In this document: piece by piece, positions 36,720-54,525 of the stretch | Layout of the letters: each line of letters begins with the position of its first letter | Numbering within the stretch: the first letter of the stretch is position 1 | From: Acidobacteriota bacterium | GTDB taxonomy: Bacteria; Acidobacteriota; Thermoanaerobaculia; Multivoradales; JAGPDF01 | NCBI GenBank assembly: GCA_014584695.1 | Contig: JACTMI010000032.1 | Coordinates: 105,265-169,264, forward strand | Length of the DNA: 64,000 bases | Direction of reading: 5' to 3' | Translations under genes and position numbers: made by a program | The notes under the pieces: model-generated | What the model was told of the DNA's origin: nothing | Seen by the model: only the letters and a program-made list of their open reading frames with translations | Databases searched by the model: none

Positions 36720-38393
36720 ATGCCCTTCCTCGTCTTCCGCAACGGAGCCCGCAAAGGGGAGCGATTCTGGTTCGAGCGCGGCGTGCTGCTCGGCCGCGGT
36801 CCGCTGGCCGATCTCGAGCTCAAGGACCCGGCGGTGTCGCGCCGCCACGCGCTGGTCTCGTGGGCGGAGAAGCGCTGCTTCGTCTCCGACCTGCAGAGCG
36901 GCAACGGCACCTACGTCAACGGCCAGCGGGTGCGGGATCCGGTGCCGATCGACGAAGGCGACGAGATCCGGGTCGGCGCCAGCATCCTCGAGTTCCGGCA
37001 GAACGTCGAGCGGGTGCGCGACCTGTCGATGATCTCGCGCATCCTGCTCGAGGACTCGAAGCCCGATCTCGCCAAGGTCACGATCTCGCGCTCGGTCGTG
37101 ATCCCGATGTCGGGCAAGCGGACGACCACCGGCAGGACCTCGCTCGCCGCCGAGCTCAAGGCGCTCCAGCAGCGGCTGGAGTTCGTCAACGAGGTCGGCA
37201 AGGCGATGGCGCGCACGATCGACGAGACGGCGCTGCTCGCCGAGGTGCTGCGCCAGGTGCTCGACATCCTGCCGCAGGCGGACCGCGCCTTCGTGGTCCT
37301 CTACGAGGAGGACACCCAGACCTTCGTGCCGCGCGTGGCCCGCACCCGCTCCGGGACGGCGACCGAGATCCCGGCCAGCCGGACGCTGCTCGAGGAAGTG
37401 GTCCGCAAGCGCCATGCGCTGCTGTCGACCGACATCGGCAAGGAGGGCGCGTTCGAGGCGGCGATGTCGGTGCGGGCGCTCGATCTGCGCTCGGTCGCCT
37501 GCGTGCCGCTGATCGCCGAGGACCGGGTCTACGGCGTGCTCCAGGTCGACAATTCGGAGCGCAGCCGGAAGTTCTCCGAAGCGGACCTGAACATCCTGGT
37601 CGGCGTCGCCGGTCCGATCGCCCTGTCGCTCGCCAATGCCCGCCTCCACCGACAGCTGCTCGACCGCGAGCTGCTCGAGCACGATCTGGCGTTGGCGCGC
37701 CGGATCCAGCTGCGCTTCCTGCCCAAGGAGCTGCCGAAGCTGCCCGGATATCGTTTCGCGGTCGAATATTCGCCCGCGCTGGCGGTCGGCGGCGACCTCT
37801 ACGACCTCGTGCCGCTGCCCGACGGACGGCTCGCCATCGCGCTGGGGGACGTCTCCGGCAAGGGCGTGTCGGGCGCGCTCATGATGGCCCGGCTGACCAG
37901 CGAGTTGCGCGCGGCGGCGGTGCGGCGGGCCTCGGCCGCGGCGGTGCTCGAGGAGCTCAACGAGGTGGTCCACGCCGAGGGCGCCGAGGGGATGTTCGTG
38001 ACCCTCCTCTTCGGCATTCTCGACCCTTCGACCGGCCGGATCGAGCTCGCCAACGCCGGACACCTGCGGCCGGTCCTGCGCCACCCCGACGGCCGCTGCG
38101 GCGAGCTGTCGATCGCGACCGGCGCCGCGCTCGGCTTCAAGCGCCCGCTCGGGGCGGCCGCCTACGCCGTGCAGCTGGGCCCAGGCGACCTGCTGGCGAC
38201 CTTCTCGGATGGCTTGACCGAGGCCGCCAATGGCGCCGGCGAGCGCTTCGAGAGCGCGCGGGTCGTCGCGGCGATGCGGGGCGCGGCGGGCTGCGACGAG
38301 GCGCTCACCGGCATTCTTCAGTCGGTGCGCCAGTTCCTGGGCGACAGCGCGGTCGACGACGACCTGACCCTGCTCTGCGTCGGCCGCAGCTGA
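36720..38393 (+). CDS. FHA-GAF-PP2C (SpoIIE-type) serine phosphatase
   Basis: N-terminal FHA (VSRRHALVSW...GNGTYVNG), central GAF-like region, C-terminal PP2C/SpoIIE (AVGGDLYD...GDVSGKGVSGA). Confidence 0.8.
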   Translation: MPFLVFRNGARKGERFWFERGVLLGRGPLADLELKDPAVSRRHALVSWAEKRCFVSDLQSGNGTYVNGQRVRDPVPIDEGDEIRVGASILEFRQNVERVRDLSMISRILLEDSKPDLAKVTISRSVVIPMSGKRTTTGRTSLAAELKALQQRLEFVNEVGKAMARTIDETALLAEVLRQVLDILPQADRAFVVLYEEDTQTFVPRVARTRSGTATEIPASRTLLEEVVRKRHALLSTDIGKEGAFEAAMSVRALDLRSVACVPLIAEDRVYGVLQVDNSERSRKFSEADLNILVGVAGPIALSLANARLHRQLLDRELLEHDLALARRIQLRFLPKELPKLPGYRFAVEYSPALAVGGDLYDLVPLPDGRLAIALGDVSGKGVSGALMMARLTSELRAAAVRRASAAAVLEELNEVVHAEGAEGMFVTLLFGILDPSTGRIELANAGHLRPVLRHPDGRCGELSIATGAALGFKRPLGAAAYAVQLGPGDLLATFSDGLTEAANGAGERFESARVVAAMRGAAGCDEALTGILQSVRQFLGDSAVDDDLTLLCVGRS

Positions 38394-38409: not shown

Positions 38410-38922
38410 TCAGCGCTTCGGCCGGCCGGGATCGGGGCGGAACTTGATCAGCGCCGCCGCCAGGGCGGCACGCTCCGAGGAGCTGCCGCCGCCGATCGGC
38501 GCGCGGATCTCCTTGCGCACGCCGTCGCGGCGCGACAGCAGGTCGTCCGCCAGATGGGAGACCTTGGCCGCCTTGACGTTGGTGGCCAGCCACTCGAGCG
38601 CCGGTTCGCGCGCCGGCAGGATCGGGAACAACGCCGCGAACCCCGAGATGTCGAAGACCTCCTTGACGCTCGGGTTGAGGGCGCAGAGGGCGAGCCGGCC
38701 GCCGACGCTGGCCAGGCGCTTGCCGGTCATCAGCAGGACGCGCAGGCCGGCGCTGGTGACGAAGTCGAGCCGTCCACAGTCGACCAGGAGCTCGGTCTTG
38801 CCCCCGGCCAACGCGGCTTCGAGCGCCTTCTCGAGCTGGGGCGCGGAGCGGGTGTCGAGCTGGCCCTGGAGCGCGGCGACCAGCACTCTGCCGGCCTCCT
38901 TGACCTGGACTTCGAAGGGCAT
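38410..38922 (-). CDS. STAS-domain protein (anti-sigma-factor antagonist-like) with C-terminal extension
   Basis: MPFEVQVKEAGRVLVAALQGQLDTRSAPQLE...SAGLRVLL matches the SpoIIAA/RsbV fold. Confidence 0.65.
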   Translation of the reverse strand: MPFEVQVKEAGRVLVAALQGQLDTRSAPQLEKALEAALAGGKTELLVDCGRLDFVTSAGLRVLLMTGKRLASVGGRLALCALNPSVKEVFDISGFAALFPILPAREPALEWLATNVKAAKVSHLADDLLSRRDGVRKEIRAPIGGGSSSERAALAAALIKFRPDPGRPKR

Positions 38923-38930: not shown

Positions 38931-39749
38931 CTACTCGGCGTGGAAGACGAAGTCGACCAGCCCGAAACGGAGCCGCGCGCCGCTGGTGAGCGGGCGCTCG
39001 ACCCCGGTCGCCAGCCGATCGCCCTCGACGAAGGTGCCGTTGGCGGTGCCGACCTCCTCGCGCAGCAGGAAGGCGCCGTCGCGGTAGACGATTCGCGCGT
39101 GCCGGCGCGACAAGGAGCGCTGGGGGTCGAGCGCCGTCAGGTCGATCTCGGGCGCCTGCTGGGTGACCGGGTCGAGGCGGCCGATGACCGCGTCGCGGTC
39201 GAACGGCAGCGGCAGCTCCGCGCCGGAGGGGACGTGCACGAGGCGCGGCCGGGCGGCGGTCGCGGCCGCGGGGGCGGCCGCCGCGGGCGGCGCCACCGGC
39301 TGCAGCGTCGCCAGCTCGTGCCGGGGCGCTCCCCCCAGCACCTCCTGCGCCACCCGGTTGGCGGCCAGCGCCTCCTCCTCGTAGCGGCGCAGTCGCTGCC
39401 CGAGCCCGCGCAGCATGCGCACGGCGACTTCCGGGTACTCGCGCAGCATCTGATCGAAGGTCGAGGCGTCGACCGGCAGCAGCCGCGCATCCTTGAGGAC
39501 GCGCGCCGACGCCGAGCGCGGGCGGCTCTCGAGCATCGCCATCTCGCCGAAGAAGTCGCCGGCCTCGAGCGCCATCAGCCGCTTCTCCTCGGGACCGAAC
39601 TGCTTGACCAGCTCGACCTCGCCCTCCTGGATGATGTACATCTCCTCGCCGCGCTCGCCTTCGCGGAAGACGAAGCTGCCGGCCGGGATCGAGATCAGCA
39701 GCTTCGACTGGGTGTCGTCGCCGCCGGCGCCTGGGCGTTCGTTGACCAT
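38931..39749 (-). CDS. Cyclic-nucleotide-binding domain plus FHA domain protein
   Basis: N-terminal cNMP-binding (FGEMAML) and C-terminal FHA (SRRHARIVY...GTANGTFVEG). Confidence 0.75.
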   Translation of the reverse strand: MVNERPGAGGDDTQSKLLISIPAGSFVFREGERGEEMYIIQEGEVELVKQFGPEEKRLMALEAGDFFGEMAMLESRPRSASARVLKDARLLPVDASTFDQMLREYPEVAVRMLRGLGQRLRRYEEEALAANRVAQEVLGGAPRHELATLQPVAPPAAAAPAAATAARPRLVHVPSGAELPLPFDRDAVIGRLDPVTQQAPEIDLTALDPQRSLSRRHARIVYRDGAFLLREEVGTANGTFVEGDRLATGVERPLTSGARLRFGLVDFVFHAE

Positions 39750-39865
39750 CGGGAGTGCGCATTGTAGATTCGACGCGGAAGCGAGTAAAGCCGTCCCGTC
39801 CGCCCTGGCCGATTCGCCGCCGGGCGGGGCGGAGTCCCGCCAGGGCAGGACCCGGACGCCCGATC

Positions 39866-41005
39866 ATGCGCGCACGCACCCTCGACGCCCCCTCCGAAGT
39901 GTCTCCCTCCGGCCCGCTCTGCCCGGTGGCGGAGCGGGTACGAGCCGAATCGGTCCGCCTCTGGGGGGCCGACCGGATGGTGACGATCGTGGGGCAGTCG
40001 CGCGCCATCGAGGAGCCGCTGGAGCGGCTGCTCAAGGTGGCGCGCTTTCACGAGCCGGTCCTGCTGCTGGGCGAGAGCGGTGTCGGCAAGGAGTCGTTCG
40101 CGGCGGCCTTGCACGCGCTCGGCCCCCGCTCCGACAAGCCGTTCGTGTCGGTCAACTGCCCGCAGTATCAGGAGGGCAATCTCACCGTCTCGGAGCTCTT
40201 CGGCCACAAGCGCGGCAGCTTCACCGGCGCCACCAACGATCGCCGGGGCTGCTTCGAGACCGCCGACGGGGGCTCGATCTTCCTCGACGAGGTCGCCGAC
40301 CTGCACATGTCCGCGCAGACCATGCTGCTGCGGGCGCTGGCTAACGGCGAGTTCCAGCCACTCGGCTCGGAGGTGACGCGCAAGGTGAGCGTCCGGGTCG
40401 TCTCGGCGACCAATCGAGACCTGAACAGCCTCGCCGCCGACGAGCGCTTCCGGCGCGACCTGCTGTTCCGGCTCCGCTACTTCCAGGTCGAGATTCCGCC
40501 GCTGCGGTCGCGCGGCGACGACTGGCTGCTGCTGGCGGAGTACTTCCTGGCGCGGCTGGCTCGCCGCTACGGCGTGCGCAAGTGCCTGTCGGGGGACTCG
40601 ATCCGGCTGCTGGAGCGCTACGACTGGCCGGGCAACGTGCGCGAGCTGATCTCGGTGGCGACCGCCGGCTACGCCCTCTCGGACGGCGACCGGATCGAAC
40701 CGCGCGATTTCGTCGATCACCTCGAGCAGGAGAACCGGCCGCGCGGTTCCGAGGTCGACGACCTCTACCGCCGGCTCTGCCGCGAGAGCGGCGATTTCTG
40801 GCAGCTGGTGCAGGAGCCCTTCCTCGACCGCGAGCTGTCGCGGCGCGAGGTGCGGACGCTGGTCGCCCGCGGCCTGCGCGAGTCGCGCGGCAGCTATCGC
40901 CGGCTGCTCGAGGTCTGGAAGATCCCCGCCGAGACCTACCAGAAGTTCATGGACTTCCTGCGCCACCATCGCCTCAAGCCGAGCAACCTGGAAGACGAGA
41001 ACTGA
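39866..41005 (+). CDS. Sigma-54-dependent transcriptional activator with no receiver or sensory domain (PspF-like)
   Basis: GESGVGKE Walker A, ELFGHKRGSFTGA (GAFTGA variant), RELISV. Only ~35 aa precede the AAA+ core. Confidence 0.8.
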   Translation: MRARTLDAPSEVSPSGPLCPVAERVRAESVRLWGADRMVTIVGQSRAIEEPLERLLKVARFHEPVLLLGESGVGKESFAAALHALGPRSDKPFVSVNCPQYQEGNLTVSELFGHKRGSFTGATNDRRGCFETADGGSIFLDEVADLHMSAQTMLLRALANGEFQPLGSEVTRKVSVRVVSATNRDLNSLAADERFRRDLLFRLRYFQVEIPPLRSRGDDWLLLAEYFLARLARRYGVRKCLSGDSIRLLERYDWPGNVRELISVATAGYALSDGDRIEPRDFVDHLEQENRPRGSEVDDLYRRLCRESGDFWQLVQEPFLDRELSRREVRTLVARGLRESRGSYRRLLEVWKIPAETYQKFMDFLRHHRLKPSNLEDEN

Positions 41006-41032: not shown

Positions 41033-42532
41033 GTGACCCGGACCCGCGCGGTGGTCTTCGACCTCTACGGGACCCTGCTCGAGATCGGGCGGCCCGTCTT
41101 CCAGGAGCGACTGCCCCGCATCGAGGGGATCTCCCGTCGCCAGTGGGTGGAGTTCCAGCGCGAGGACCTGCTGGTGCGCCCGTACGTCTCCCGCGAGGCG
41201 TTCGTCGACGCCATCGTCGCGCGGTTCGGCGGCGGCGCCGACGGCCACCGGGCGACGCTGCTCGACTTGCTCGAGGTCGAGCTCGCCTCCGTCCACGCCG
41301 TCGAGGGCGCAGGGTCCCTGCTCGCCTTCCTGCGCCGGCGCGGCCTCAGGCTCGGCCTGATCACCAACTCCGCCTCGCCCTACCGGGAGCCGCTCGAGCG
41401 GCTGGGGCTCGCGGAGCTGTTCGATGCGGTGCTCTTCTCGTGCGACGCCGGCGCGCGCAAGCCCGAGGAGCGGCTCTACCGCGACACGCTGGCGCGCCTC
41501 GGGGAGGCGCTGACTGCCGATCCGGCGGCGGCGCTGATGGTCGGCGACTCGCTCGGCAATGACGTCCGGGCGCCCGGACGCGCCGGCATGCGGGGGCTGC
41601 TGATCGGCGCCAGTGGCACCGCCCGCGCGGTGCCGCGGCTGGCCGACCTCGGCTGGCTGGATCTCGACACCCTCGAGCCCCTGCTGCCCGAGGGCGCCGA
41701 GATGGTGCTCGCCGGCGAGCGCCTGTCGGTCGAGCGGCGCGAGTCGCTCGACGACGCCGACCAGGGGCGCTACAACCTGGTCGCTCGCTTGCGCCTGCGC
41801 ACCGCGCGGGGGCTCGAGAAAGTGGCCTACGTCAAGCGCTTCCTGCTGCCGGAGTCGATCGAGGTCGAGCGCCTGATGGCGCGGCTGCTCGACGAGATCC
41901 ACGTCGGTTCCTGTCCCAACGTTCTGGTGGGTACCGGACTGGAGCCCCTGCTGGTGGTCGCCGAGGCGCCGGGGGTCAAGCTCGAGGCCGCGCGCGGCGA
42001 GCCGGCATACGCCCGCGAGGTGGGCCGCCACGCCGCCGCGGCCTACCTGTTCGCCAACGCCGACCTGCGGCCGCGCAATGCCTTTCTCGACGGCGAGGGG
42101 GCGGGTCTGCGGATGACCATGGTCGACTACGAGCACTGCCTGCTCAACCTGGCGATCGACCTCGAGGGCATCCCCGATCCGCTCGACCGCGACGCGCTCG
42201 AGGCGCTCGGCCGCGTCGAGCTCGAGCGCCGCGTGGCGCGCCGCGTACTCGCCGACGCCCACATGCGGCGCGCCTACCGCGCCTTCTTGGGCCCCCACGC
42301 CAAGGACGCCGGACTCGCCCGCGCCTTCCGCGCCGGCTGGATGGAGGTGCACGGCAAGGCGCGGGTCCTGCGTCAGGTCGTCGTCGACCTGCTCGAAGCC
42401 AGGCTGGCGGCCGATCCCCCGCTGGTCGTCGGCACCCATGCCTATCGCCGCGCATTCCTCCGTCTCGACCTCGAGGACGTCCTCTCCCGGCTGGACGAGG
42501 ACCCCGATCGCGCCTGCGACCGCTGCTTCTGA
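41033..42532 (+). CDS. HAD-superfamily hydrolase fused to a C-terminal domain of unknown function
   Basis: VVFDLYGTLL (DxD motif I) and MVGDSLGNDV (motif IV), then ~300 aa of unrecognised sequence. Confidence 0.6.
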   Translation: MTRTRAVVFDLYGTLLEIGRPVFQERLPRIEGISRRQWVEFQREDLLVRPYVSREAFVDAIVARFGGGADGHRATLLDLLEVELASVHAVEGAGSLLAFLRRRGLRLGLITNSASPYREPLERLGLAELFDAVLFSCDAGARKPEERLYRDTLARLGEALTADPAAALMVGDSLGNDVRAPGRAGMRGLLIGASGTARAVPRLADLGWLDLDTLEPLLPEGAEMVLAGERLSVERRESLDDADQGRYNLVARLRLRTARGLEKVAYVKRFLLPESIEVERLMARLLDEIHVGSCPNVLVGTGLEPLLVVAEAPGVKLEAARGEPAYAREVGRHAAAAYLFANADLRPRNAFLDGEGAGLRMTMVDYEHCLLNLAIDLEGIPDPLDRDALEALGRVELERRVARRVLADAHMRRAYRAFLGPHAKDAGLARAFRAGWMEVHGKARVLRQVVVDLLEARLAADPPLVVGTHAYRRAFLRLDLEDVLSRLDEDPDRACDRCF

Positions 42533-42565
42533 ACCGCGATACTCCTGTCGGTCCTGTCCGCGATG

Positions 42566-42626
42566 GAGCCACGGCTCCAGAAGTTCGGGTCCCGGCTCCG
42601 TCCGGCTCCGTGCAGGATCCGGCTCG
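42566..42626. promoter_or_regulatory. Candidate enhancer: palindrome GGAGCC-N2-GGCTCC plus direct repeats CCGGCTCCG, TCCGGCTCCG and ATCCGGCTCG, 50-110 bp upstream of a sigma-54 promoter
   Basis: Read directly. The same TCCGGCTCCGG motif recurs, inverted, upstream of the second precursor gene (44341-44353). Confidence 0.3.
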
Positions 42627-42674
42627 ATTTCCATAACTGCTTTGAAGTGAGTTGTTTGTCGCGTTCGATGCGGT

Positions 42675-42689
42675 TGGCACCGGGGTTGC
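42675..42689 (+). promoter_or_regulatory. Sigma-54 (-24/-12) promoter TGGCAC-cgggg-TTGC
   Basis: Perfect consensus spacing, 83 nt upstream of the precursor A start codon. Confidence 0.65.
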
Positions 42690-42771
42690 CATAGGAAGAG
42701 GCAGAACGGCGAAACCCGCCGGGGCACCTCCGGATGAACCGGCTGGCGCCACACAACGAGGAGCAACGAAA

Positions 42772-43079
42772 ATGGAGATGTCGCGCGGTGAGATGCAGGA
42801 CCTGCTGAACAAGTTCGCGGCCCAGAACCCGAAGTACCGCGAGGCCCTGCTGTCGGACCCGAAGTCGGTGGTCCAGAAGCAGTTCGCCCTCAGCCTGGAG
42901 GGGGTCACGGTCAAGGCGGTCGAGGAGAGCCCGAACACCTTGTACGTCATCGTTCCGCGCGCGGCGGCGGCCGGTGAGCTCGACGACTCCGACCTCGAGA
43001 AGGTCGCGGGCGGCGGCGACATCAACGTCAAGCTGGGCGGCGAGGTCAGCTGCTCGCAGGGCAGATCAACCTCGGCTGA
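42772..43079 (+). CDS. RiPP precursor peptide A with NHLP-type leader and GG site; 3' end uncertain (-1 frameshift against a conserved TGA at 43077-43079)
   Basis: GAGGAG RBS. Leader ...LLSDPKSVVQKQFALSLEGVTVKAVEESPNTLYVIVPRAAAAGELDDSDLEKVAGGG, then DINVKLGGEVSCSQG. Frame 0 has no stop until 43596, running antisense through the aminopeptidase gene. The end is set at the conserved TGA. Confidence 0.55.
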
Positions 43080-43181
43080 GCCGGGCGCAGACATCAGGGG
43101 CCGCGGCGGGCGACCGAAAGGTCCCCGCCGCGGCTCTTTCCCTTTCGAGCGGCTGGCAGGTCGGCGCAGGTTGCGCCGGGC

Positions 43182-44309
43182 TCAGCCTTCGCCGGCGAGC
43201 AGGCGCTCCGGATTGAGCCCCTCGAGATCGGGCACCACGAAGCGGCCGTCCTTGCGGATCAGGACGTCATCGAACCAGATCTCGCCGCCGCCGTCGGCCG
43301 CTTCCATCCGCAGCACCAGGTCCCAGTGGACCTGCGAACGGTTGCCGTTGTCCGCGGCGGCGTACGCCTGGCCCGGCGTGAAGTGGATCGAGCCGGCGAT
43401 CTTCTCGTCGAACAGGATGTCCTTCATCGGTGCGGTGATGTGGGGGTTGAAGCCGAGCGCGAACTCGCCGACATGGCGCGCGCCGTCGTCGGTGTCGAGC
43501 AGGCGGTCGAGCGCCTCGCCGGCGCTGCTCGAGGCCTCGACGATGCGGCCGCCGCGAAAGACGAAGCGGACGTTCTCGTGCGTCACCCCGCGGTAGAGCG
43601 ACGGCGTGTTGTAACGGATGGTCCCCTCCACGCTATCGCGCACCGGCGCGGTGTAGACCTCGCCGTCCGGCAGGTTGCGCCGACCGTCGCAGGCCACCGC
43701 GCCGATACCCCTGACGCTGAAGGAGAGGTCGGTGCCCGGAGCGGTGATGCGAACGCGGTCGGCCGCCTCGAGGCGCGCCTTGAGCGGCGCCATGGCGCGC
43801 GACATCCGGGCGTAGTCGAGCGTGCAGACCCGGAAGTAGAGCTCTTCGAAGGCCGCGGTCGAGGTGCCGGCCAGCTGGGCCATCGAGGGACCCGGCCAGC
43901 GGGTCACCACCCAGCGCGTGCGCGGGACGCGAAGGTCCAGGTGGACGCGCTTCCAGAGCAGCGCCTCGAACAGCGCCATCCGCTCGCTCGGCACGTCGGC
44001 GAGCTCCGAGACGTTGTCGCCGCCGCGCAGGCCGATGTAGGCGTCCACCTGGCGCATCACGGCTTCCTCGCCGTCGGCGATCAGCGTCCACTGCTCGGTG
44101 GTCCCGGCCCGCAGCAGCTCGCGGGTCACCGGCGCGCTCTTCAGCAGCACCGCCGGCAGCGCCCCGGCGGCCGCCGCCGCGCGCACCAGGGTGGTCACGA
44201 ACGAGGTCGGCACGTCGATCGCCTCGATCAGCAGCTTGTCGCCCGGAACGAGGGCGCAGGAGTAGCGGACGAGCGTTTCGGCGAGCTTCTGGTGGCGGAG
44301 GTCGGTCAT
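43182..44309 (-). CDS. M29-family aminopeptidase (AmpS/PepS-like)
   Basis: 376 aa from the ATG at 44309; M29-like organisation (HVGEFALG...). It is divergent from and sandwiched between the two precursor genes. Confidence 0.65.
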   Translation of the reverse strand: MTDLRHQKLAETLVRYSCALVPGDKLLIEAIDVPTSFVTTLVRAAAAAGALPAVLLKSAPVTRELLRAGTTEQWTLIADGEEAVMRQVDAYIGLRGGDNVSELADVPSERMALFEALLWKRVHLDLRVPRTRWVVTRWPGPSMAQLAGTSTAAFEELYFRVCTLDYARMSRAMAPLKARLEAADRVRITAPGTDLSFSVRGIGAVACDGRRNLPDGEVYTAPVRDSVEGTIRYNTPSLYRGVTHENVRFVFRGGRIVEASSSAGEALDRLLDTDDGARHVGEFALGFNPHITAPMKDILFDEKIAGSIHFTPGQAYAAADNGNRSQVHWDLVLRMEAADGGGEIWFDDVLIRKDGRFVVPDLEGLNPERLLAGEG

Positions 44310-44522
44310 CGGAGGAGGTCCCGGTGGGGTCGTGCGGCGCCCGGAGCCGGAGCGCGCCGCGGGTTCTCGAAGCAACTCTAGCCGCGATTCGAGCGGCTGG
44401 CTCTTCCGGCATGGAGCGCTCGCTCCATCGATTCGAGCGAGGGCTCCGCTCAGCGCGGCGCCGGCAGGACCGCGGAGCGATGCGCGCGTTGAAAGCATTG
44501 AACTTACGCATTCGAGGCCGAT

Positions 44523-44537
44523 TGGCATCGGGGTTGC
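44523..44537 (+). promoter_or_regulatory. Sigma-54 (-24/-12) promoter TGGCAT-cgggg-TTGC
   Basis: Same architecture and spacing as the 42675 promoter, 82 nt upstream of the precursor B start. Confidence 0.6.
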
Positions 44538-44618
44538 GATAGGGAGAATCGTTCGGCGCACGACGCCGAGCCCGGGCGGGATGAACTCGCCGGGCACGAG
44601 ACCAGAGGAGCAACGCCA

Positions 44619-44928
44619 GTGGAGATGTCACGCGGTGAGATGCAGGACCTGCTGAACAAGTTCGCGTCCCAGAACCCGCAGTATCGCGATGCGCTGATCA
44701 AGGACCCGAAGTCGGTGGTGGAGAAGCAGTTCAACATCAGCCTCTCCGGCGTCACCGTCAAGGCCGTGACCGAGGCCCCCGACACGCTGTACGTGATCGT
44801 TCCGCGTGCTGCGGCGGCCGGTGAGCTCGACGACTCCGACCTCGAGAAGGTCGCGGGCGGCGGCGACATCAACGTCAAGCTGGGCGGCGAGGTCAGCTGC
44901 TCGCAGGGCCCAGATCAACCTCGGCTGA
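44619..44928 (+). CDS. RiPP precursor peptide B (paralog of A, GTG/ATG start); 3' end uncertain (+1 frameshift against the same conserved TGA at 44926-44928)
   Basis: Leader about 85% identical to A and an identical core start DINVKLGGEVSCSQG. Frame 0 would read 345 nt into lanM, which is implausible. Confidence 0.55.
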
Positions 44929-45040
44929 GCCGAGGCGGATCCACGAAGCCCGATTCCGGGGGCCCGTGGACGGGCTGCAAGGCCCGCCACGCGGCCCCCG
45001 GTTGTTTCGTGGGCCCCTGCTCGGAGAACCCAAGCTGGCC

Positions 45041-48000
45041 ATGTCGACGATCGCCACTGCGTGCCTGCGTGCCGAGACGCTGTTCGAGCGGCTCGCGCGG
45101 CTGGCCCGCGCTTTCGACGCTCCTCCGGCCTTGGAGGATGCCGCGGTGGCCGCGGCGCTCGAGCCGTGGCGGCGGGCGGTCGCGCGCGGCGACGGCGAGG
45201 CCTTCGCGCGCCGGCTCGCCTGGGACGGCATCGACCCGCGCGTGGCGGCGCTCGCGTTCGTGGAACCGGTAGGAGCGCCCGACGGCCCATGGTGCGTGAA
45301 CATGGAGCGCTGGCTCCATGCCGTGGCGACAAGGGGTCTCGCGAGCTCCGGCAGCGAGCTCGCCGCCGGGCTGCCGTTCGGAGAGTGGGTCGCCAGCTGG
45401 GTCGCAGAAGCGGCCTCCCGCGCCCGGCAGAAGCTGCCGGCGCTCGACGACCTGCTGACGCCGGCGGCGTGGCTGCAGTGGCAGCGGGCCCTCGGCGGGC
45501 GGCTCGCCTGGATCGCCGCGCTGCCGCTCTACGAGCGCTTCGACCTCGAGCGATCGGCGCGGGGCGAAGCGGGTGCGCTAGCCCGATTTCTCGCGGCGCT
45601 CGGCGCCAGCCCGACGGCGTCCGGCCTCGAGCTGCCGGGACTGGTCCGGCAGCTCGCCGGCCGGGCCGAGGACTGGATCGATGCCGGTGTGGAGTGGATC
45701 GGTCGCTTGGCCGCCGATCGCGCCGGCTTCGCACTCGCCTTCGAGGGGGACGCCGATCCCGGTCGGGTCGTGGCGGTGGAGGCCGGGCTCTCCGATCCTC
45801 ACGCCCGTGGCCGCCGTGTCCTGGCGCTCACCTTCGAGTCGGGGCTCGAGGTGATCTACAAGCCCCGGCCGGTCGACCTGGAGTCGGCCTGGTGGCAGCT
45901 CGCGAGCGAGCTCGCCGAGGCCGGTTTCGAGGCCGCCCCGCTGGCGGCGCGGACGCTCGCCCGGCCGGGCTACGGCTGGATGGAAAGGGTGGCCGCCGGC
46001 GGGGTCGACAGCGCGAGCGAGGCCGAGTCCTGGTTCCGCCGCGCGGGCGCGCTGGTCGCGCTGGCATGGGTGCTCGGCGGCCGCGACCTCCACGCCGAGA
46101 ACCTGATCGCCGACCGGCGCGGACCGGTCCTGGTGGACGCGGAGATGCTGCTCGCTCCGGAGCCGGGCGCGCTGCTGCGCAGCGGCCCCGACTCCGTGCT
46201 GGCGACCGGCCTGGTGGCCGATCCCGCGGCCACGGCGGGGCCCGGAGCCTGGGGCTACGCCGGCCTCGACCTGCCGGAGCCGGGCGAGCTGCCCGAAGCC
46301 GACCGGCACTGGGAGAACCTCGGCACCGACCGGCTTCGGCTGGCCTGGCGACGTTTCCCCAGGGCCCTCAAGACCAACGTTCTGAGGTGGCGCGGGCGGC
46401 CCCAGCGTCCCGAGGCCTGGCGGGAGGCCGTGTTGGAGGGCTTCGACCTCGGCATGGCGGCGATTGGCGAGCAGCGGGAGCGGATCGAGCGCTGGTTGGC
46501 GGCGCGCGGCGACACGCCGACGCGCGTTCTGTTCCGTCCGAGCGCCCAGTACGCGACCACGGTCGCCCTGTCGGTCCGTCCCCGCTACGCCAACGACGGG
46601 CTGGCCGGCAGCCTGCTGCGCGAAGCGCTCCTGCAGCCGCTCGTCGGCCTCGCCGAGCGGCCGGCGCTCTGGCCCCTGATCGCCGACGAGCGGGCCGCGC
46701 TCGAAGCGCTCGACCTGCCGGTCTTCCACCTGCCGGCCGGTGCGACGGCGCTCACCAACTCGGCGGGAGAAAGGATCGAGGGCCTGTTCGAGCAGAGCGG
46801 GATCGCGGCCGCTCGCGCGCGGCTCGCCGAGCTCGACGCGGAGAGAATCGAGCGCGAACGCCGCCACCTCGCGGCCGCGCTCGAGCCGCGCCGGCTCGGG
46901 CGCGCGGAGGAGGAGTCCCGGCTCGCGGCCGCGGCGGCCGAGATCGCCGGCGCGCTGGCGATGTCGAAGGCCTTCGCCGCCGTGCCCGCGCCCGGCGCGT
47001 CGCTGCGCGAGCTCGCCCTCTACGGCGGCGCCGCCGGGCGCGCGCTGTTCGCGGCGGGGGCTTGGCGGGCCACCGGCGGAGCGGCCTGGGCATCGATTGC
47101 CGGAGAGATCGCGTCCGGCCTCGTGCGCGCTCTCGCGGCGGTGCCGGCGGAGGCGGAGGGACAGCCATCACGGCCTGGGGGCACCGACGGCTGGGGCTCG
47201 ATTCTCTGGACCTTGGTCACCCTCGCGGAACTGCTCGAGCAGCCGGAGCTGCTCGCGGGCGCGGCGGCGGCCGGCGAGCGTCTCGAAGCCACGCCACGGC
47301 GGCCGGATCTCTGGGGATTCGACCTCGCCGCGGGCGAGGCGGGGGCGTTGCTCGGCTGGCTGGCCCTGGCGCAGGCGAGCGGGGAGGCCGCGGCGCTCGA
47401 GCGCGCGCGCGACAGTGGGCAGCGGCTGCTGTCGAGCCAGCTCCGGTCGGGTCCGGATGCCGGAGGCTGGCCGGCGCCCGGGGGCTCGCCGCCGCTCGCG
47501 GGCTTCGCGCACGGCGCCTCGGGCATCGCCCGTGCCCTCGATGCGCTGGCGGCCGCGACCGGCGAGGGGGAGTATCGCGACGCGGCCGGCGCGGCGCTGC
47601 GCTTCGAGAGCTCGTTGTTCGATCGCCAGCGCGGGGACTGGCCAGCGCGGATCGCCGGCGGCGGTCGCCGGTTCCTGTGCAGCTGGTGCCACGGAGCGCC
47701 GGGGGTGGCGATCGCCCGCGCGCTCCGGCTGGCGGCAGGGGGCGAGGATCGGGCGGCGGCTACGGAGCTCGCGACGGCGCTCGCCACGCTCGCTGGGGCG
47801 CCGCTGCCCGAAGTCGACCACCTCTGCTGCGGCACGGCGGGACGCCTGGCGGCGCAGACGGTCGCCGGGCGGTGGGGCGGCGGCGAGGAAGCGCTGGCGG
47901 CGGGACGGCGGCTGGCGCGCCGGGCCCTGGCGCGCGCTGAAGGCAGCGGCGGCTGGCGGATTCCGGCCGAGCCGCCGGCGGAGCGTCCGGATCTCGGGCT

Positions 48001-48121
48001 GTTCCGAGGCTACCCGGGCCTCGCCTGGAGCCTGATCTCGCTCACCGACGCGGGCGGACCGCTGCCGCTGGTGGCGGCGCTCGAGCTGCCGGCGGAGCGC
48101 CGCCGGAGGAGCCAGCAATGA
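45041..48121 (+). CDS. lanM: Class II lanthipeptide synthetase LanM (dehydratase plus LanC-like cyclase)
   Basis: Kinase-like dehydratase motifs (DLHAENLIA...VLVDAEM). C-terminal LanC zinc-ligand motifs GFAHGASG, SWCHGAPG and CCGTAG. An alternative GTG start at 44966 is possible. Confidence 0.85.
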   Translation: MSTIATACLRAETLFERLARLARAFDAPPALEDAAVAAALEPWRRAVARGDGEAFARRLAWDGIDPRVAALAFVEPVGAPDGPWCVNMERWLHAVATRGLASSGSELAAGLPFGEWVASWVAEAASRARQKLPALDDLLTPAAWLQWQRALGGRLAWIAALPLYERFDLERSARGEAGALARFLAALGASPTASGLELPGLVRQLAGRAEDWIDAGVEWIGRLAADRAGFALAFEGDADPGRVVAVEAGLSDPHARGRRVLALTFESGLEVIYKPRPVDLESAWWQLASELAEAGFEAAPLAARTLARPGYGWMERVAAGGVDSASEAESWFRRAGALVALAWVLGGRDLHAENLIADRRGPVLVDAEMLLAPEPGALLRSGPDSVLATGLVADPAATAGPGAWGYAGLDLPEPGELPEADRHWENLGTDRLRLAWRRFPRALKTNVLRWRGRPQRPEAWREAVLEGFDLGMAAIGEQRERIERWLAARGDTPTRVLFRPSAQYATTVALSVRPRYANDGLAGSLLREALLQPLVGLAERPALWPLIADERAALEALDLPVFHLPAGATALTNSAGERIEGLFEQSGIAAARARLAELDAERIERERRHLAAALEPRRLGRAEEESRLAAAAAEIAGALAMSKAFAAVPAPGASLRELALYGGAAGRALFAAGAWRATGGAAWASIAGEIASGLVRALAAVPAEAEGQPSRPGGTDGWGSILWTLVTLAELLEQPELLAGAAAAGERLEATPRRPDLWGFDLAAGEAGALLGWLALAQASGEAAALERARDSGQRLLSSQLRSGPDAGGWPAPGGSPPLAGFAHGASGIARALDALAAATGEGEYRDAAGAALRFESSLFDRQRGDWPARIAGGGRRFLCSWCHGAPGVAIARALRLAAGGEDRAAATELATALATLAGAPLPEVDHLCCGTAGRLAAQTVAGRWGGGEEALAAGRRLARRALARAEGSGGWRIPAEPPAERPDLGLFRGYPGLAWSLISLTDAGGPLPLVAALELPAERRRRSQQ

Positions 48122-49092
48122 CGACGCCGCAATTCGAGGTCCGCCGGCTCGCATCGCCGGTCGATCCCGCCTTCAGCGCCATGACCTTTCCGCTCTATCG
48201 CCGCCTGCTTTCGCTCGAGCCGACGGTGCGCCACCCCGAGCAGGGCGACCCGCGGCGGATCCAGCCGGTCGCCATCGGCGCCTTCGAGGCGGAGCGGCCG
48301 GTCGGCCTGATCGTGGCCGAGCAGCCCCTCGGGGACAGCGAGCCGGCGGAGCTGCTCTCCCTGTTCGTGGCCGAGGGCGAGCGCGGCCGGGGGGTCGGAG
48401 GCGCCCTGGTCGCCGCGGCCGAGCAGGCCCTCGCGGCCGCGGGGGTCGCGGAGGTGCGCGCGGTGTGGACGGCCGGCAAGCCGGCGATCGAGGCGCTGGA
48501 GCGGATTCTCGCCCGCCACGGCTGGACGCCGCCGGCGGCCCGCACGGTTTCGGCCCGCTTCCGGCCCGAGAAGATGCTCACCCTGCCGCTGTTCTCTCCT
48601 CGTCACCTGGCGTCCCTGGATCCGGGATTCGAGATCTTCCCCTGGGCGGAGCTGCCGGCCGAGGAGCTCGCCGCCCTGCGCGCCTCGAACGAGGCCCGGC
48701 ACTGGATTTCCGACGGTCTCGAGCCCTGGAGCTACCGCGGCGGCGCCGGCTACGACCCGGCGACCAGCGTCGGCGCGCGCCACCAGGGGCGGCTGGTCGG
48801 CTGGGTGCTGACCGAGCGAATCGACGACCGCCTGCTGCGCTGGACCGTGAGCTTCCTGGACAAGCGTCTGTCCCGGCGCGGCCGCATCGTGCCGCTCTAC
48901 AAGTCGTCGCTCGAGCGGGCGGTGGCGGCGGGCTACGAGCTCTGCCTGTTCGTGACCCCCGTCCGGTTCCCCAACATGGTGCGCTTCATCCACAAGTGGA
49001 TCGCCCGCCGGGCGGAGTTCATCGGCGAGACTCGCTCCGCCGGGCGCCGGCTCACCCCGTCGGGCGCCGGCGCGCCCCGCCTTGAATCCTGA
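48118..49092 (+). CDS. GNAT-family N-acetyltransferase, translationally coupled to lanM (ATGA)
   Basis: GERGRGVGGALV acetyl-CoA-binding motif. The start overlaps the lanM stop. Confidence 0.65.
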   Translation: MTTPQFEVRRLASPVDPAFSAMTFPLYRRLLSLEPTVRHPEQGDPRRIQPVAIGAFEAERPVGLIVAEQPLGDSEPAELLSLFVAEGERGRGVGGALVAAAEQALAAAGVAEVRAVWTAGKPAIEALERILARHGWTPPAARTVSARFRPEKMLTLPLFSPRHLASLDPGFEIFPWAELPAEELAALRASNEARHWISDGLEPWSYRGGAGYDPATSVGARHQGRLVGWVLTERIDDRLLRWTVSFLDKRLSRRGRIVPLYKSSLERAVAAGYELCLFVTPVRFPNMVRFIHKWIARRAEFIGETRSAGRRLTPSGAGAPRLES

Positions 49093-53324: not shown

Positions 53325-53354
53325 CGCGCCGGCGGCGGGGGAGGAGGCACGGTC

Positions 53355-54512
53355 ATGTTCGGCGGAGGTCCCGAGAAGCTGCTGCGCAAGGCGGCGATCG
53401 AGAAGATGTCGTCGCCGGAGCAGCTCGACATGGCGATGCGGGTGACCTCGCCGATGGGCTGGGTGGCGCTGTCGGCGATCGGGGTGGCCCTGGTCGCCGG
53501 CATCGTCTGGAGCATCGTCGGCCGCATTCCCGAGCAGGTCGACGCGCAGGGGGAGCTGCTGCGCGGGGATCGTGTCGGCGCGGTGACGGCGATCGCCTCG
53601 GGCCGGCTCAAGGACGTGGTCGTCCGCATGGGAGACAACATCGAGGTCGGCGATCTCGTGGCCCGGCTCGCGCTGCCGGACATCGAGGCGCAGATCGAGA
53701 AGGTGAAGGCGGACATCCAGGACCTGGAGGCCCGGCAGCGGGTGCAAAGCGGCGAGACCAGCGCCGTGGTCGCCGGCTACCGGTCCAAGCTCTCCGGGCT
53801 CTACGCGCAGCGCCGCAACATGCAGCAGCTGGTGGAGAAGGGGCTGCGCACGCAGAAGGACCTGCTGCAGATCGACGCCCAGATCGCCGACACGCAGGCC
53901 CAGATCGCCCAGACCCAGGGCGGCAGCGACCAGCGCGACCTCCAGGTCGACGACAAGCGGCGGGAGCTGATCCGGCTCGAGTCCCAGCTGGCCGCGACCT
54001 CGGAGCTGCGCTCCTCGGTACCCGGCAGGGTGGTCCAGATCCAGGTCGCGGCGGGGCAGCCGGTGCAAGCAGGAGATTCGGTCGTGCTGATCGAGGACGA
54101 GAGCCTGCCGCTGCACGCGCTGATCCTGATCCCGGGCGTGCAGGGCAAGCGGGTCGTTCCCGGCATGGAGGTCAAGGTCTCGCCGACCGACGTCAAGTCG
54201 GAAGACCACGGCTTCATGCTCGGCAAGGTGACTTCGGTCTCGGACAACGCCGTGGCGCCGCAGGAGCTCGACCGGATTCTCAACAACCAGGCGAAGACCC
54301 AGAAGTACATGGAGCAGGCCCCTTTCATCGCCTTCGCGGACCTGATTCCGGATCCGGCCCCCGGCAACGTCTCCGGCTTCAAGTGGACCTCCGCTCTCGG
54401 CCCGCCGAAGCGAATCACCAGCGGCACGCCCTGCGTCTTCCAGGTGATCGTCGACGAGCGCCGGCCGATCTCCTACGTCGTCCCGATGGTCAAGAAGACG
54501 CTGGGAATCTGA
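53355..54512 (+). CDS. HlyD-family periplasmic adaptor (NHLP-bacteriocin secretion type)
   Basis: GGAGGAGG RBS, N-terminal transmembrane anchor, long coiled-coil, C-terminal beta-domain. Confidence 0.8.
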   Translation: MFGGGPEKLLRKAAIEKMSSPEQLDMAMRVTSPMGWVALSAIGVALVAGIVWSIVGRIPEQVDAQGELLRGDRVGAVTAIASGRLKDVVVRMGDNIEVGDLVARLALPDIEAQIEKVKADIQDLEARQRVQSGETSAVVAGYRSKLSGLYAQRRNMQQLVEKGLRTQKDLLQIDAQIADTQAQIAQTQGGSDQRDLQVDDKRRELIRLESQLAATSELRSSVPGRVVQIQVAAGQPVQAGDSVVLIEDESLPLHALILIPGVQGKRVVPGMEVKVSPTDVKSEDHGFMLGKVTSVSDNAVAPQELDRILNNQAKTQKYMEQAPFIAFADLIPDPAPGNVSGFKWTSALGPPKRITSGTPCVFQVIVDERRPISYVVPMVKKTLGI

Positions 54513-54525
54513 GCCCGCGCCGCGC

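What the first reader, a model, noticed from the sequence alone, without database searches (positions are those of the whole stretch)
42566..42689. Textbook sigma-54 promoters in front of both precursor genes, with a shared GGCTCC-repeat upstream element and a PspF-like activator 1.7 kb away
TGGCAC-N5-TTGC (42675-42689) and TGGCAT-N5-TTGC (44523-44537) sit 82-83 nt upstream of the two precursor start codons with identical spacing. Upstream of A there is GGAGCC-N2-GGCTCC plus CCGGCTCCG tandem repeats (42566-42626). Upstream of B the same TCCGGCTCCGG motif occurs inverted (44341-44353). The nearest sigma-54 activator (39866-41005) has only the AAA+ core and no receiver or sensor domain, so its activity would have to be gated by a protein partner. 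Its neighbours encode FHA, PP2C and STAS proteins. Sigma-54 control of a RiPP precursor is uncommon.
Basis: seen in the sequence. Interest (0 to 1): 0.75.

Follow-up and report, generated by a model that had tools for sequence, protein, structure and literature searches.

The report
Sigma-54 promoters driving lanthipeptide precursor genes
Two peptide-antibiotic precursor genes in an Acidobacteriota gene cluster each carry a complete sigma-54 promoter with activator-binding sites, and the same arrangement sits in front of about 70 related precursor genes in other genomes, so one dedicated activator protein probably switches these peptides on.

Summary
TGGCACcggggTTGC (42675-42689) and TGGCATcggggTTGC (44523-44537) are the only two exact TGGCAY-N5-TTGC matches in 64 kb (0.14 expected). 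They lie 83 and 82 nt before two NHLP-leader precursor genes of a LanM lanthipeptide cluster.

Comparative evidence supports the sigma-54 reading. Of 78 homologous precursor loci, all Acidobacteriota, 67 have the motif within 300 nt upstream (about 0.08 expected per locus). Five of the 11 exceptions are downstream genes of tandem arrays.

The enhancer is a tandem pair of GGAGC-N4-GCTCC palindromes centred 103 and 82 bp upstream of the -24 element. An AT-rich spacer follows.

The 379-aa activator has a short N-terminus, an AAA+ core with a GSFTGA loop and an 84-aa helical C-terminal domain. It is syntenic in about 40 loci. Its last helix changes together with the palindrome sequence.

No publication describing this was found. 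I file it as a new member of a known kind: a PspF-like enhancer-binding protein with sigma-54 promoters, here on RiPP precursors. Gating by the conserved cNMP-FHA, STAS and PP2C neighbours is unproven.

Both precursor genes are frameshifted in this window (19 and 17 nt missing). Independent assemblies, otherwise identical, have them intact.

The parts
36720..38393 (+). FHA-GAF-PP2C (SpoIIE-type) phosphatase; candidate upstream signalling component
   Evidence: Pfam hits FHA, GAF_2 and SpoIIE. Syntenic about 6 kb upstream of the precursor in Thermoanaerobaculia-type loci.
38410..38922 (-). STAS-domain protein (170 aa, anti-sigma-antagonist type), immediately downstream of the cNMP-FHA gene
   Evidence: Translation seen. 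The gene call carries PF01740 STAS on the identical Logan contig L086. Syntenic in 12 related loci.
38931..39749 (-). Cyclic-nucleotide-binding + FHA protein, divergently transcribed from the activator; candidate gating partner
   Evidence: Pfam cNMP_binding and FHA. It stays linked to the cluster in both Thermoanaerobaculia-type and Vicinamibacterales loci, even where it has moved downstream of lanM.
39866..41005 (+). Sensor-less sigma-54 enhancer-binding protein (379 aa): about 40-aa N-terminal segment, AAA+ core with a GSFTGA loop, AAA lid, and an 84-aa five-helix C-terminal domain (putative DNA-binding domain)
   Evidence: Sigma54_activat 193 bits and AAA_lid_14. Below the cut-off of every named NCBIfam equivalog. 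The same 379-aa gene call exists in a public record, P0082. Orthologues at 52-77% identity lie next to precursors in about 40 loci. C-terminal model pLDDT 88.
41033..42532 (+). HAD-family hydrolase with a 300-aa C-terminal region of unknown family; lies between the activator and promoter A
   Evidence: Pfam Hydrolase and HAD_2. No family found for the C-terminal half. Syntenic.
42564..42579 (.). Enhancer site 1 of promoter A: perfect palindrome TGGAGCC-ac-GGCTCCA, centred 103 bp upstream of the T of TGGCAC
   Evidence: The same position and sequence type recur in related loci.
42586..42629 (.). Enhancer site 2 of promoter A (degenerate: right half-site GGCTCC, centred at about -82) plus two further CCGGCTCC/G half-site repeats
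   Evidence: The second site is phased 21 bp from the first across the family.
42620..42660 (.). AT-rich spacer between enhancer and promoter A (GC 0.43 in a 71% GC genome); possible bend or IHF-type site
   Evidence: Composition profile. A conserved dip to a mean GC of 0.42 at -30 to -21 from the -24 element in 68 promoters.
42675..42689 (+). Sigma-54 promoter A: TGGCAC-N5-TTGC; predicted transcription start at about 42700
   Evidence: Identical sequence in the independent contig L086.
42700..42771 (+). Predicted 5' UTR of precursor A with two hairpins (42707-42721, 42723-42750). The second carries the conserved GGAUGAACC, followed by the ribosome-binding sequence GAGGAG
42772..43078 (+). Precursor A (NHLP leader, VAGG cleavage site, core GDINVKLGGEVSCSQG...). 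Frameshifted in this window by a 19-nt gap after 43061
   Evidence: TIGR03793 52.4 bits against a cut-off of 50.9. Intact 108-aa form in L001 and L002. Homologues.
43096..43148 (+). Strong hairpin followed by UCUUUCCCUUU after precursor A (terminator-like)
   Evidence: -43 kcal/mol, z -3.4. The simple terminator scan missed it because the T run is interrupted.
43182..44309 (-). M29 aminopeptidase between the two precursor genes
   Evidence: Pfam Peptidase_M29 171 bits. Present only in the closest relatives.
44341..44353 (.). It lies about 175 bp upstream of promoter B's -24 element and about 35 nt upstream of the M29 start; role unresolved
   Evidence: It is outside the two conserved enhancer positions.
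44412..44447 (.). Enhancer of promoter B: site 1 ATGGAGCG-ct-CGCTCCAT (44412-44429, perfect palindrome) and site 2 CGAGCGAGGGCTCC (44434-44447, 1 mismatch), centred at -103 and -82
44480..44520 (.). AT-rich spacer upstream of promoter B (GC 0.53)
44523..44537 (+). Sigma-54 promoter B: TGGCAT-N5-TTGC; predicted transcription start at about 44548
44619..44927 (+). Precursor B (NHLP leader; the sequence from the leader's end through the surviving core matches A). Frameshifted in this window by a 17-nt gap at about 44906
   Evidence: TIGR03793 46.2 bits, just under the 50.9 cut-off. Intact form in L087 and L089.
44956..45010 (+). Very stable hairpin followed by GGUUGUUUCGU between precursor B and lanM (attenuator or terminator-like)
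   Evidence: -58.5 kcal/mol, z -5.2.
45041..48121 (+). LanM class II lanthipeptide synthetase, probably co-transcribed with precursor B by read-through. Followed by GNAT, two OEP genes, NHLM HlyD, ABC1 and FHA-ABC2
   Evidence: TIGR03897 468.6 bits. Pfam DUF4135 and LANC_like. Export genes.

Best explanation
Each precursor gene has its own enhancer-dependent sigma-54 promoter.

Proposed mechanism:
1. RNA polymerase carrying sigma-54 binds TGGCAC/T-N5-TTGC as a closed complex.
2. The 379-aa sensor-less enhancer-binding protein encoded 1.7 kb upstream (39866-41005) binds, through its C-terminal helical domain, to two GGAGC-N4-GCTCC palindromes. These are centred about 103 and 82 bp upstream of the -24 element, roughly -129 and -108 from the predicted transcription start, and they lie on the same face of the helix.
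3. The AT-rich spacer allows the DNA to loop.
4. ATP hydrolysis by the AAA+ ring, through its GSFTGA loop, opens the promoter.
5. Transcription starts near 42700 and 44548 and gives a roughly 70-nt structured leader followed by the precursor. A strong hairpin ends transcript A. A second hairpin after precursor B attenuates read-through into lanM, the GNAT gene and the export genes.

Shown here: the motifs, their conservation and phasing, the synteny of the activator, and the co-variation of its last helix with the palindrome sequence.

Inferred: binding, the transcription start, dependence on sigma-54, and any gating. The activator has no sensor, so its activity is most likely set in trans, by analogy with PspA acting on PspF or HrpV on HrpS. 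The conserved cNMP-FHA, STAS and FHA-GAF-PP2C neighbours are the best candidates, but control through activator abundance is not excluded.
For: - The two sites are the only exact matches in 64 kb (0.14 expected).
- Of 78 homologous precursor loci, 27 have a perfect, 33 a one-mismatch and 7 a two-mismatch GG/GC-anchored motif within 300 nt upstream, a median of 91 nt before the start codon. Only 41 perfect matches exist in 2.13 Mb of strand searched.
- Five of the 11 loci without a motif are second or third genes of tandem arrays, with the motif before the first gene. Three others have TGGCAC or CGGCAC with a deviant -12 element.
- Conservation is position-specific: high at -24/-12 and at the unsearched T after TTGC (79%), low in the spacer and flanks.
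- GGAGC-N4-GCTCC (up to 1 mismatch) occurs in 50 of 68 promoters, against 0.04 expected per 200 nt. The centres cluster at -103 and -82.
- The composite of enhancer plus promoter occurs 68 times in the loci and the window, and 62 of those lie directly upstream of a precursor.
- The AT-rich dip is conserved.
- An activator orthologue (52-77% identity over about 360 aa) lies within 1.2-4.9 kb of the precursor in about 40 loci. The GSFTGA loop and the C-terminal Y-Q/K-K/R-F-M-D-F-L-R-H-H-x-L-K-P are conserved.
- Activators ending YKRFMGFL[RH][HN]HRLQP go with GTCGCGC-type palindromes instead of TGGAGC-type ones. Two other helix variants go with two other palindromes.
- The C-terminal domain is confidently predicted as a helical bundle (pLDDT 88).
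- The promoter A region is 100% identical in an independent assembly.
Against: - No transcription start, rpoN dependence or DNA binding has been measured.
- The presence of rpoN in this genome could not be checked, because only the window is held.
- The window's two promoters have C or G rather than the family-typical T after TTGC.
- Many loci are paralogues or orthologues, so the counts are not independent events.
- Promoter B also fits a weak sigma-70 pattern (TTGGCA-16-GAGAAT, 9 of 12).
- In this window both precursor reading frames are broken, so as written the promoters would drive defective genes.
Confidence: 0.8

Rival explanations
1. The promoters are sigma-54-dependent, but the neighbouring activator is not their cognate partner. 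Another enhancer-binding protein, or another transcription factor, recognises the palindromes, and the neighbouring activator controls something else.
For: No binding data exist. The C-terminal domain cannot be assigned to a known DNA-binding fold. Many orphan precursor copies in Vicinamibacterales have the enhancer with no activator gene within 8 kb. A second, 41%-identical enhancer-binding protein lies near some orphans (L054, L057, L069).
Against: The activator is linked to the precursor in about 40 loci across two classes despite rearrangement. In Vicinamibacterales its stop codon lies directly upstream of the enhancer. Its last helix changes together with the palindrome sequence in four distinct combinations. 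The composite motif is nearly exclusive to precursor genes.
Confidence: 0.1
2. The activator is constitutively active, as truncated enhancer-binding proteins are. Control would then lie in its own expression or stability. The cNMP-FHA, STAS and PP2C genes would serve export or another process rather than gating transcription.
For: A sigma-70-like pair of divergent promoters lies between the cNMP-FHA and activator genes (39742-39789). The ABC2 exporter itself carries an FHA domain, so phospho-threonine signalling may act on secretion. No RsbW-type kinase or Ser/Thr kinase was found in the ORFs scanned. A Lon protease gene lies nearby.
Against: cNMP-FHA remains linked to the cluster in both classes, and STAS and PP2C in one class. 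This is expected for a dedicated regulatory module. The known sensor-less activators (PspF, HrpR/S) are controlled by protein partners (established knowledge).
Confidence: 0.3
3. The conserved upstream block is not a sigma-54 promoter. It would be a sigma-70-type promoter, or part of a transcribed RNA leader, and would be conserved only because the precursor genes were duplicated together with their flanks.
For: Promoter B fits TTGGCA-16-GAGAAT (9 of 12). A and B are clearly duplicates (84% identity over 716 columns). Orphan copies within one genome are paralogues.
Against: Promoter A has no sigma-70 match. Across the family only the GG-N10-GC framework and its sigma-54-specific flanks are conserved, while the spacer and surrounding bases vary freely; this is selection on the motif, not recent copying. 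The motif is found in two classes with precursors only 45-60% identical. Rfam finds no RNA family here. A sigma-54 activator is encoded alongside.
Confidence: 0.04

Closest known systems
PspF / psp promoter of Escherichia coli, and the HrpR/HrpS - hrpL system of Pseudomonas syringae (sensor-less enhancer-binding proteins)
   Same: The activator consists of an AAA+ sigma-54 interaction domain plus a small C-terminal domain and has no N-terminal sensor. There are tandem upstream binding sites about 80-130 bp from the promoter, and a bendable spacer. Control is expected to come from a separate protein.
   Different: It is not an orthologue: it scores 231 bits against the PspF equivalog cut-off of 443. 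The loop reads GSFTGA. The C-terminal domain is not recognised as HTH_8. No PspA or HrpV homologue lies nearby; the linked candidates are cNMP-FHA, STAS and PP2C proteins. The target is a RiPP precursor gene, not a stress or secretion operon.
Sigma-54 / enhancer-binding-protein control of natural-product genes in Myxococcus xanthus (Sci Rep 2021, PMC7910581; Stevens et al. 2013, PMC3665592)
   Same: Sigma-54 promoters and enhancer-binding proteins act directly on secondary-metabolite genes.
   Different: Those cases concern polyketide and non-ribosomal peptide clusters, and regulators with sensory domains encoded elsewhere in the genome. Here a dedicated, cluster-encoded, sensor-less activator serves the short precursor gene of a ribosomal peptide, and the arrangement is conserved across Acidobacteriota.
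NHLP-leader / LanM lanthipeptide systems with NHLM export (TIGR03793, TIGR03794/6/7; prochlorosin-type clusters)
   Same: NHLP leader with a GG cleavage site, LanM, a C39-ABC exporter, a second ABC and HlyD. Multiple precursor copies occur, some far from the synthetase.
   Different: No sigma-54 control was found described for these systems in the literature searches made here. This cluster adds GNAT, M29, HAD and FHA-rich signalling genes.
Partner-switching modules (SpoIIAA/SpoIIE, RsbV/RsbU; SypA/SypE beside the sigma-54 activator SypG in Vibrio fischeri)
   Same: A STAS protein with a TS phosphorylation-type motif and a SpoIIE-type PP2C phosphatase are encoded together, next to a sigma-54 activator.
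   Different: No RsbW/SpoIIAB-type kinase was found in the ORFs scanned, and FHA and cyclic-nucleotide-binding domains are added. Any link to the activator is conjecture.

Membership tests
Sigma-54 (-24/-12) promoter | GG and GC dinucleotides exactly 10 bp apart within TGGCAC-N5-TTGC(W) | tested here: met
   A matches 10 of 10 specified bases and B 9 of 10. The W after TTGC is C or G in the window but T in 79% of family members.
Sigma-54 (-24/-12) promoter | Correct strand and a plausible distance upstream of a gene, conserved among orthologues | tested here: met
   83 and 82 nt before the start codons. 67 of 78 homologous loci have the motif, a median of 91 nt upstream.
Sigma-54 (-24/-12) promoter | Upstream activator sequences about 80-150 bp away and a cognate enhancer-binding protein | tested here: met
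   Phased palindromes at -103 and -82 from the -24 element. Activator synteny. Helix and site co-variation.
Sigma-54 (-24/-12) promoter | Transcription start about 12 nt downstream of GC, and dependence on rpoN | not testable with these tools
   No expression data. rpoN is not in the ORFs of the window that were scanned, and the rest of the genome is not held.
Bacterial enhancer-binding protein, sensor-less (PspF-like) group | AAA+ sigma-54 interaction domain (PF00158) with Walker A and a GAFTGA-type loop | tested here: met
   PF00158 193 bits. GESGVGKE and GSFTGA are present and conserved in all 32 orthologues aligned. The second loop residue is S instead of A.
Bacterial enhancer-binding protein, sensor-less (PspF-like) group | No N-terminal receiver, GAF, PAS or V4R sensory domain | tested here: met
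   Only about 40 residues precede the AAA+ domain and no Pfam hit falls there. The same is true of the orthologues.
Bacterial enhancer-binding protein, sensor-less (PspF-like) group | C-terminal Fis-type helix-turn-helix (HTH_8) DNA-binding domain | tested here: inconclusive
Bacterial enhancer-binding protein, sensor-less (PspF-like) group | Orthology to PspF (NCBIfam TIGR02974 / NF008622) | tested here: not met
   231.6 bits against a cut-off of 443.55, and 198.6 against 529. It works like PspF but is not PspF.
NHLP-leader RiPP precursor (TIGR03793) | Leader matches the model and ends in a GG-type cleavage site; NHLM export genes nearby | tested here: met
   A scores 52.4 bits (cut-off 50.9). 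B scores 46.2 bits, just below. Both have VAGG. NHLM HlyD, ABC1 and ABC2 are above their cut-offs.
NHLP-leader RiPP precursor (TIGR03793) | Intact reading frame through the core peptide | tested here: not met
   In the window both frames run on, to 43596 and 45272, because 19 and 17 nt are missing. The intact 108-aa form is present in independent, otherwise identical contigs and in all homologues.
Class II lanthipeptide cluster | LanM synthetase (dehydratase plus LanC-like cyclase) beside a Cys- and Ser/Thr-containing core | tested here: met
   TIGR03897 468.6 bits against a cut-off of 304. The core GDINVKLGGEVSCSQGALQTMIQINLG has one Cys plus Ser and Thr residues.
Partner-switching module | STAS antagonist, PP2C phosphatase and an RsbW/SpoIIAB-type kinase | tested here: inconclusive
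   STAS and PP2C are present. No HATPase-type kinase was found in the ORFs scanned. Not every ORF of the window was scanned.

The most novel reading that the evidence does not exclude
A lineage-wide regulon in Acidobacteriota in which one cluster-encoded, sensor-less sigma-54 activator with a previously unclassified DNA-binding domain switches on all lanthipeptide precursor genes, including many orphan copies scattered around the genome. The activator would itself be held in check by a cyclic-nucleotide- and phospho-threonine-responsive module (cNMP-FHA, STAS, FHA-GAF-PP2C). Peptide production would then be a signal-gated, all-or-none decision coupled to an FHA-bearing exporter.
Probability: 0.3. 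Interest if true: 0.7.

Novelty: new member of a known kind. Interest (0 to 1): 0.55.

Why it matters
Acidobacteriota are abundant in soil and rich in biosynthetic gene clusters, but few are cultured and their clusters are hard to express.

These results define a complete control element for one widespread lanthipeptide family: the activator, its binding site, the spacer and the sigma-54 promoter. That gives a direct handle for switching the clusters on, either by expressing the activator or by replacing the promoter. It also explains why ordinary sigma-70 hosts would keep them silent.

The results further provide a natural set of activator-helix and binding-site pairs for studying DNA recognition by an unclassified enhancer-binding-protein domain. 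They also extend direct sigma-54 control from polyketide and non-ribosomal systems to a ribosomal peptide precursor.

Tried and rejected
- Rfam scan of 42400-45100 at a permissive E-value found nothing credible, so the leader is not a known RNA family.
- The simple terminator scan found nothing. Folding nevertheless shows very stable hairpins after both precursors.
- I looked by eye for an IHF consensus (WATCAANNNNTTR) in the AT-rich spacers and in the conserved CCTGATTTCATTGAC of Vicinamibacterales. There was no convincing match, so I call the region AT-rich only.
- The small upstream ORF starting at the conserved AUG of GGAUGAAC is not kept in frame or length among relatives (read from the sequences), so a leader peptide was rejected.
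- Literature searches for sigma-54 together with lanthipeptide, RiPP, NHLP, Acidobacteria or Thermoanaerobaculia found no prior description. They did find sigma-54 control of myxobacterial natural-product genes, and a statistical enrichment of sigma-54 regulators in Acidobacteriota clusters.
- The source organism could not be named. The identical activator is recorded on a 190,587-bp NCBI contig without a name.
Full report
**What is in the sequence**

The window is 71% G+C. The region 36.7-60 kb holds a class II lanthipeptide cluster. Its genes, in order:

| Coordinates | Strand | Product |
|---|---|---|
| 36720-38393 | + | FHA-GAF-PP2C phosphatase |
| 38410-38922 | - | STAS protein |
| 38931-39749 | - | cNMP-binding-FHA protein |
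| 39866-41005 | + | sigma-54 enhancer-binding protein |
| 41033-42532 | + | HAD-family protein |
| from 42772 | + | precursor A |
| 43182-44309 | - | M29 peptidase |
| from 44619 | + | precursor B |
| 45041-48121 | + | LanM |
| 48118-49092 | + | GNAT |
| 49213-53324 | + | two outer-membrane efflux proteins |
| 53325-60088 | + | NHLM-type HlyD, C39-ABC1 and an ABC2 with an N-terminal FHA domain |

Both precursors carry the NHLP leader. TIGR03793 scores are 52.4 and 46.2 bits against a cut-off of 50.9.

**Checking the observation**

TGGCACCGGGGTTGC (42675-42689) and TGGCATCGGGGTTGC (44523-44537) are present. They are the only exact TGGCAY-N5-TTGC matches on either strand of the 64 kb, where shuffles give 0.14. 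They are also the two best GG/GC-anchored matches. They end 83 and 82 nt before the start codons.

Aligning the two upstream regions shows a shared block ATTCGAnGnCGnTTGGCAyCGGGGTTGCnATAGGnAGA. Further upstream there is a palindrome at the same distance in both copies: TGGAGCC-ac-GGCTCCA at 42564-42579 and ATGGAGCG-ct-CGCTCCAT at 44412-44429.

That inverted copy is not the positional equivalent of A's enhancer.

**Is it more than two good matches?**

I collected homologues of the precursor. I then fetched 79 loci from species-representative genomes. All are Acidobacteriota, mostly Thermoanaerobaculia and Vicinamibacterales.

- Of 78 loci with enough upstream sequence, 27 have a perfect, 33 a one-mismatch and 7 a two-mismatch TGGCAC-N5-TTGC within 300 nt upstream. 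The median distance to the start codon is 91 nt.
- The whole 2.13 Mb of strand searched holds only 41 perfect matches.
- Five of the 11 loci without a motif are later genes of tandem precursor arrays, with the motif ahead of the first gene. Three have a good -24 element with a deviant -12 element.
- Conservation is confined to the functional positions. It extends to bases that were not part of the search: T after TTGC in 79% of promoters, and another T two bases later in 78%. The spacer and flanks are variable.

This pattern is what selection on a sigma-54 promoter predicts. It is not what recent copying of flanks predicts.

**The enhancer**

GGAGC-N4-GCTCC with at most one mismatch occurs in 50 of 68 anchored promoters, against 0.04 expected per 200 nt. 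Its centres fall in two sharp classes, about 103 and 82 bp upstream of the T of TGGCAC. That is 21 bp apart, or two helical turns. With the transcription start assumed 26 nt after that T, the centres lie at about -129 and -108.

Between the enhancer and the promoter the mean G+C falls to 0.42. In the window it is 0.43 at 42620-42659 and 0.53 at 44480-44519.

The composite of enhancer and promoter occurs 68 times in all loci plus the window. Of these, 62 lie directly upstream of a precursor gene. Within the sequence held, the regulon is therefore essentially the precursor genes.

**The activator**

The 379-aa protein has a Sigma54_activat domain (193 bits) and an AAA lid. Its Walker A motif is GESGVGKE and its loop reads GSFTGA. 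About 40 residues precede the AAA+ domain, and 84 residues follow the lid.

It falls below the cut-off of every named NCBIfam equivalog, including PspF. The same 379-aa gene call exists in a public record.

Orthologues at 52-77% identity lie 1.2-4.9 kb from the precursor in about 40 loci, in both classes and in different gene orders. In Vicinamibacterales the activator's stop codon lies immediately upstream of the enhancer.

The best evidence that it binds DNA is co-variation between the last helix and the palindrome:

| C-terminal helix | Palindrome upstream of the precursor |
|---|---|
| ...FMDFLRHHxLKP | TGGAGC-N4-GCTCCA |
| ...YKRFMGFL[RH][HN]HRLQP | GTCGCGC-type |
| YKRFMDFLRHHRLQP (L064) | TCGAGCC...GGCTCGA |
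| YQKFRDFLRHHRLKP (L014) | GCGAGCG...CGCTCGC |

**How it most likely works**

The polymerase-sigma-54 closed complex sits at -24/-12. The activator assembles on the two palindromes. The AT-rich spacer lets the DNA loop. ATP hydrolysis then opens the promoter.

The roughly 70-nt leader has two hairpins. The second carries a conserved GGAUGAACC and has two compensatory pairs among six sequences. A GAGGAG ribosome-binding sequence follows.

A -43 kcal/mol hairpin with a U-rich tail follows precursor A. A -58.5 kcal/mol hairpin lies between precursor B and lanM. This is the usual lantibiotic arrangement, with an abundant precursor transcript and attenuated read-through into the enzyme genes.

These steps rest on established knowledge of sigma-54 systems. 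None was measured here.

**Gating**

The activator has no sensor domain, so control in trans is likely, by analogy with PspA acting on PspF or HrpV on HrpS. The cNMP-FHA gene stays with the cluster in both classes. STAS and FHA-GAF-PP2C stay with it in the Thermoanaerobaculia-type loci.

Several points weaken this. No RsbW-type or Ser/Thr kinase was found in the ORFs scanned. The exporter ABC2 and a further protein (61698-62846, minus strand) also carry FHA domains, so this signalling could act on secretion instead. Sigma-70-like divergent promoters lie between the cNMP-FHA and activator genes, so control through activator abundance is possible. I give partner gating by these proteins roughly one chance in three.

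**Comparison with what is known**

Sigma-54 promoters with tandem upstream sites and sensor-less activators are textbook, as in PspF and HrpR/S. Direct sigma-54 control of natural-product genes is documented in Myxococcus for polyketide and non-ribosomal clusters (PMC7910581, PMC3665592). A 2026 peatland study reports that Acidobacteriota clusters are statistically enriched in sigma-54-dependent regulators, with an odds ratio of 2.25 (PMC13642348).

I found no paper describing a sigma-54 promoter on an NHLP or lanthipeptide precursor, this activator subfamily, or its binding site. The mechanism is therefore of a known kind. The target class, the activator subfamily and the lineage-wide conservation appear to be new.

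**A caution about this window**

Both precursor reading frames are broken here. Compared with independent short-read contigs from several sequencing projects, the window lacks 19 nt (GCGCTGCAGACGATGATCC) in A and 17 nt in B, within the core peptide. Those contigs are otherwise 100% identical over 1.5-1.6 kb.

The intact genes encode 108 residues ending ...SCSQGALQTMIQINLG, as do all homologues. This looks like a defect of the source assembly, or possibly a strain lesion. It does not affect the promoters: promoter A is identical in the independent contig L086.

**Verdict**

The finding is real and its interpretation is supported. It is a well-defined new example of a known regulatory design, with practical value for activating Acidobacteriota RiPP clusters. 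The open question is how the activator is controlled.

Noticed in passing
window 43055-43070 and 44900-44912: Both precursor genes are frameshifted in this window. Independent Logan contigs lack these gaps and are otherwise 100% identical: 19 nt (GCGCTGCAGACGATGATCC) are missing from A and 17 nt from B, inside the core peptide. The contigs encode an intact 108-aa precursor ending SCSQGALQTMIQINLG. This is probably an assembly or consensus error of the source contig, or a strain lesion.
   Followed up: yes
window 42723-42750 and 44570-44596; L007-L010 equivalents: The predicted 5' UTR has a conserved hairpin carrying GGGAUGAACCC, with two compensatory base-pair changes among six sequences. A GGA in or near a loop plus a GGA in the ribosome-binding sequence resembles CsrA-type binding sites. 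The small ORF starting at its AUG is not conserved.
   Followed up: partly
window 48118-49092: A GNAT acetyltransferase gene overlaps the lanM stop codon and is syntenic in most related clusters. GNAT enzymes fatty-acylate lysine or ornithine in NHLP-derived selidamides (PMC8784127), and this core has a lysine (GDINVK), so the product may be a lipidated lanthipeptide.
   Followed up: no
window 36720-38393, 38931-39749, 56693-57100, 61698-62846: Four FHA-domain proteins lie in one cluster, including an FHA domain fused to the N-terminus of the NHLM ABC2 exporter. No Ser/Thr kinase or RsbW-type kinase was seen in the ORFs scanned.
   Followed up: partly
window 41633-42532: The 300-residue C-terminal half of the HAD-family protein between the activator and promoter A matches no Pfam family. 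The whole gene is nevertheless conserved in this position in Thermoanaerobaculia-type clusters.
   Followed up: no
L042-L057, L061-L077 and others (for example the six copies from MAG MFD04651.bin.2.36: L044, L050, L051, L065, L069, L085): Vicinamibacterales genomes hold many orphan precursor genes with no lanM or activator within 8 kb. Each has its own enhancer pair, a conserved CCTGATTTCATTGAC spacer element and a sigma-54 promoter, which suggests a dispersed regulon.
   Followed up: partly
window 45304-45317: A third exact GGAGC-N4-GCTCC palindrome (GGAGCGCTGGCTCC) lies inside the 5' part of lanM. It may be chance or an internal binding site.
   Followed up: no
window 39742-39789: Back-to-back sigma-70-like promoters (TTGACC-17-TAGATT on the plus strand, TTTACT-17-TACAAT on the minus strand) lie in the 116-nt gap between the cNMP-FHA and activator genes. 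None of the enhancer palindromes is found there.
   Followed up: no
L005 and L006, ends at window 43123-43128: Two Logan contigs end, with a poly-C run (L005) or adaptor sequence (L006) attached, within the 3' arm of the hairpin after precursor A. This may be a fragment end or may mean nothing. The type of sequencing library is unknown.
   Followed up: no
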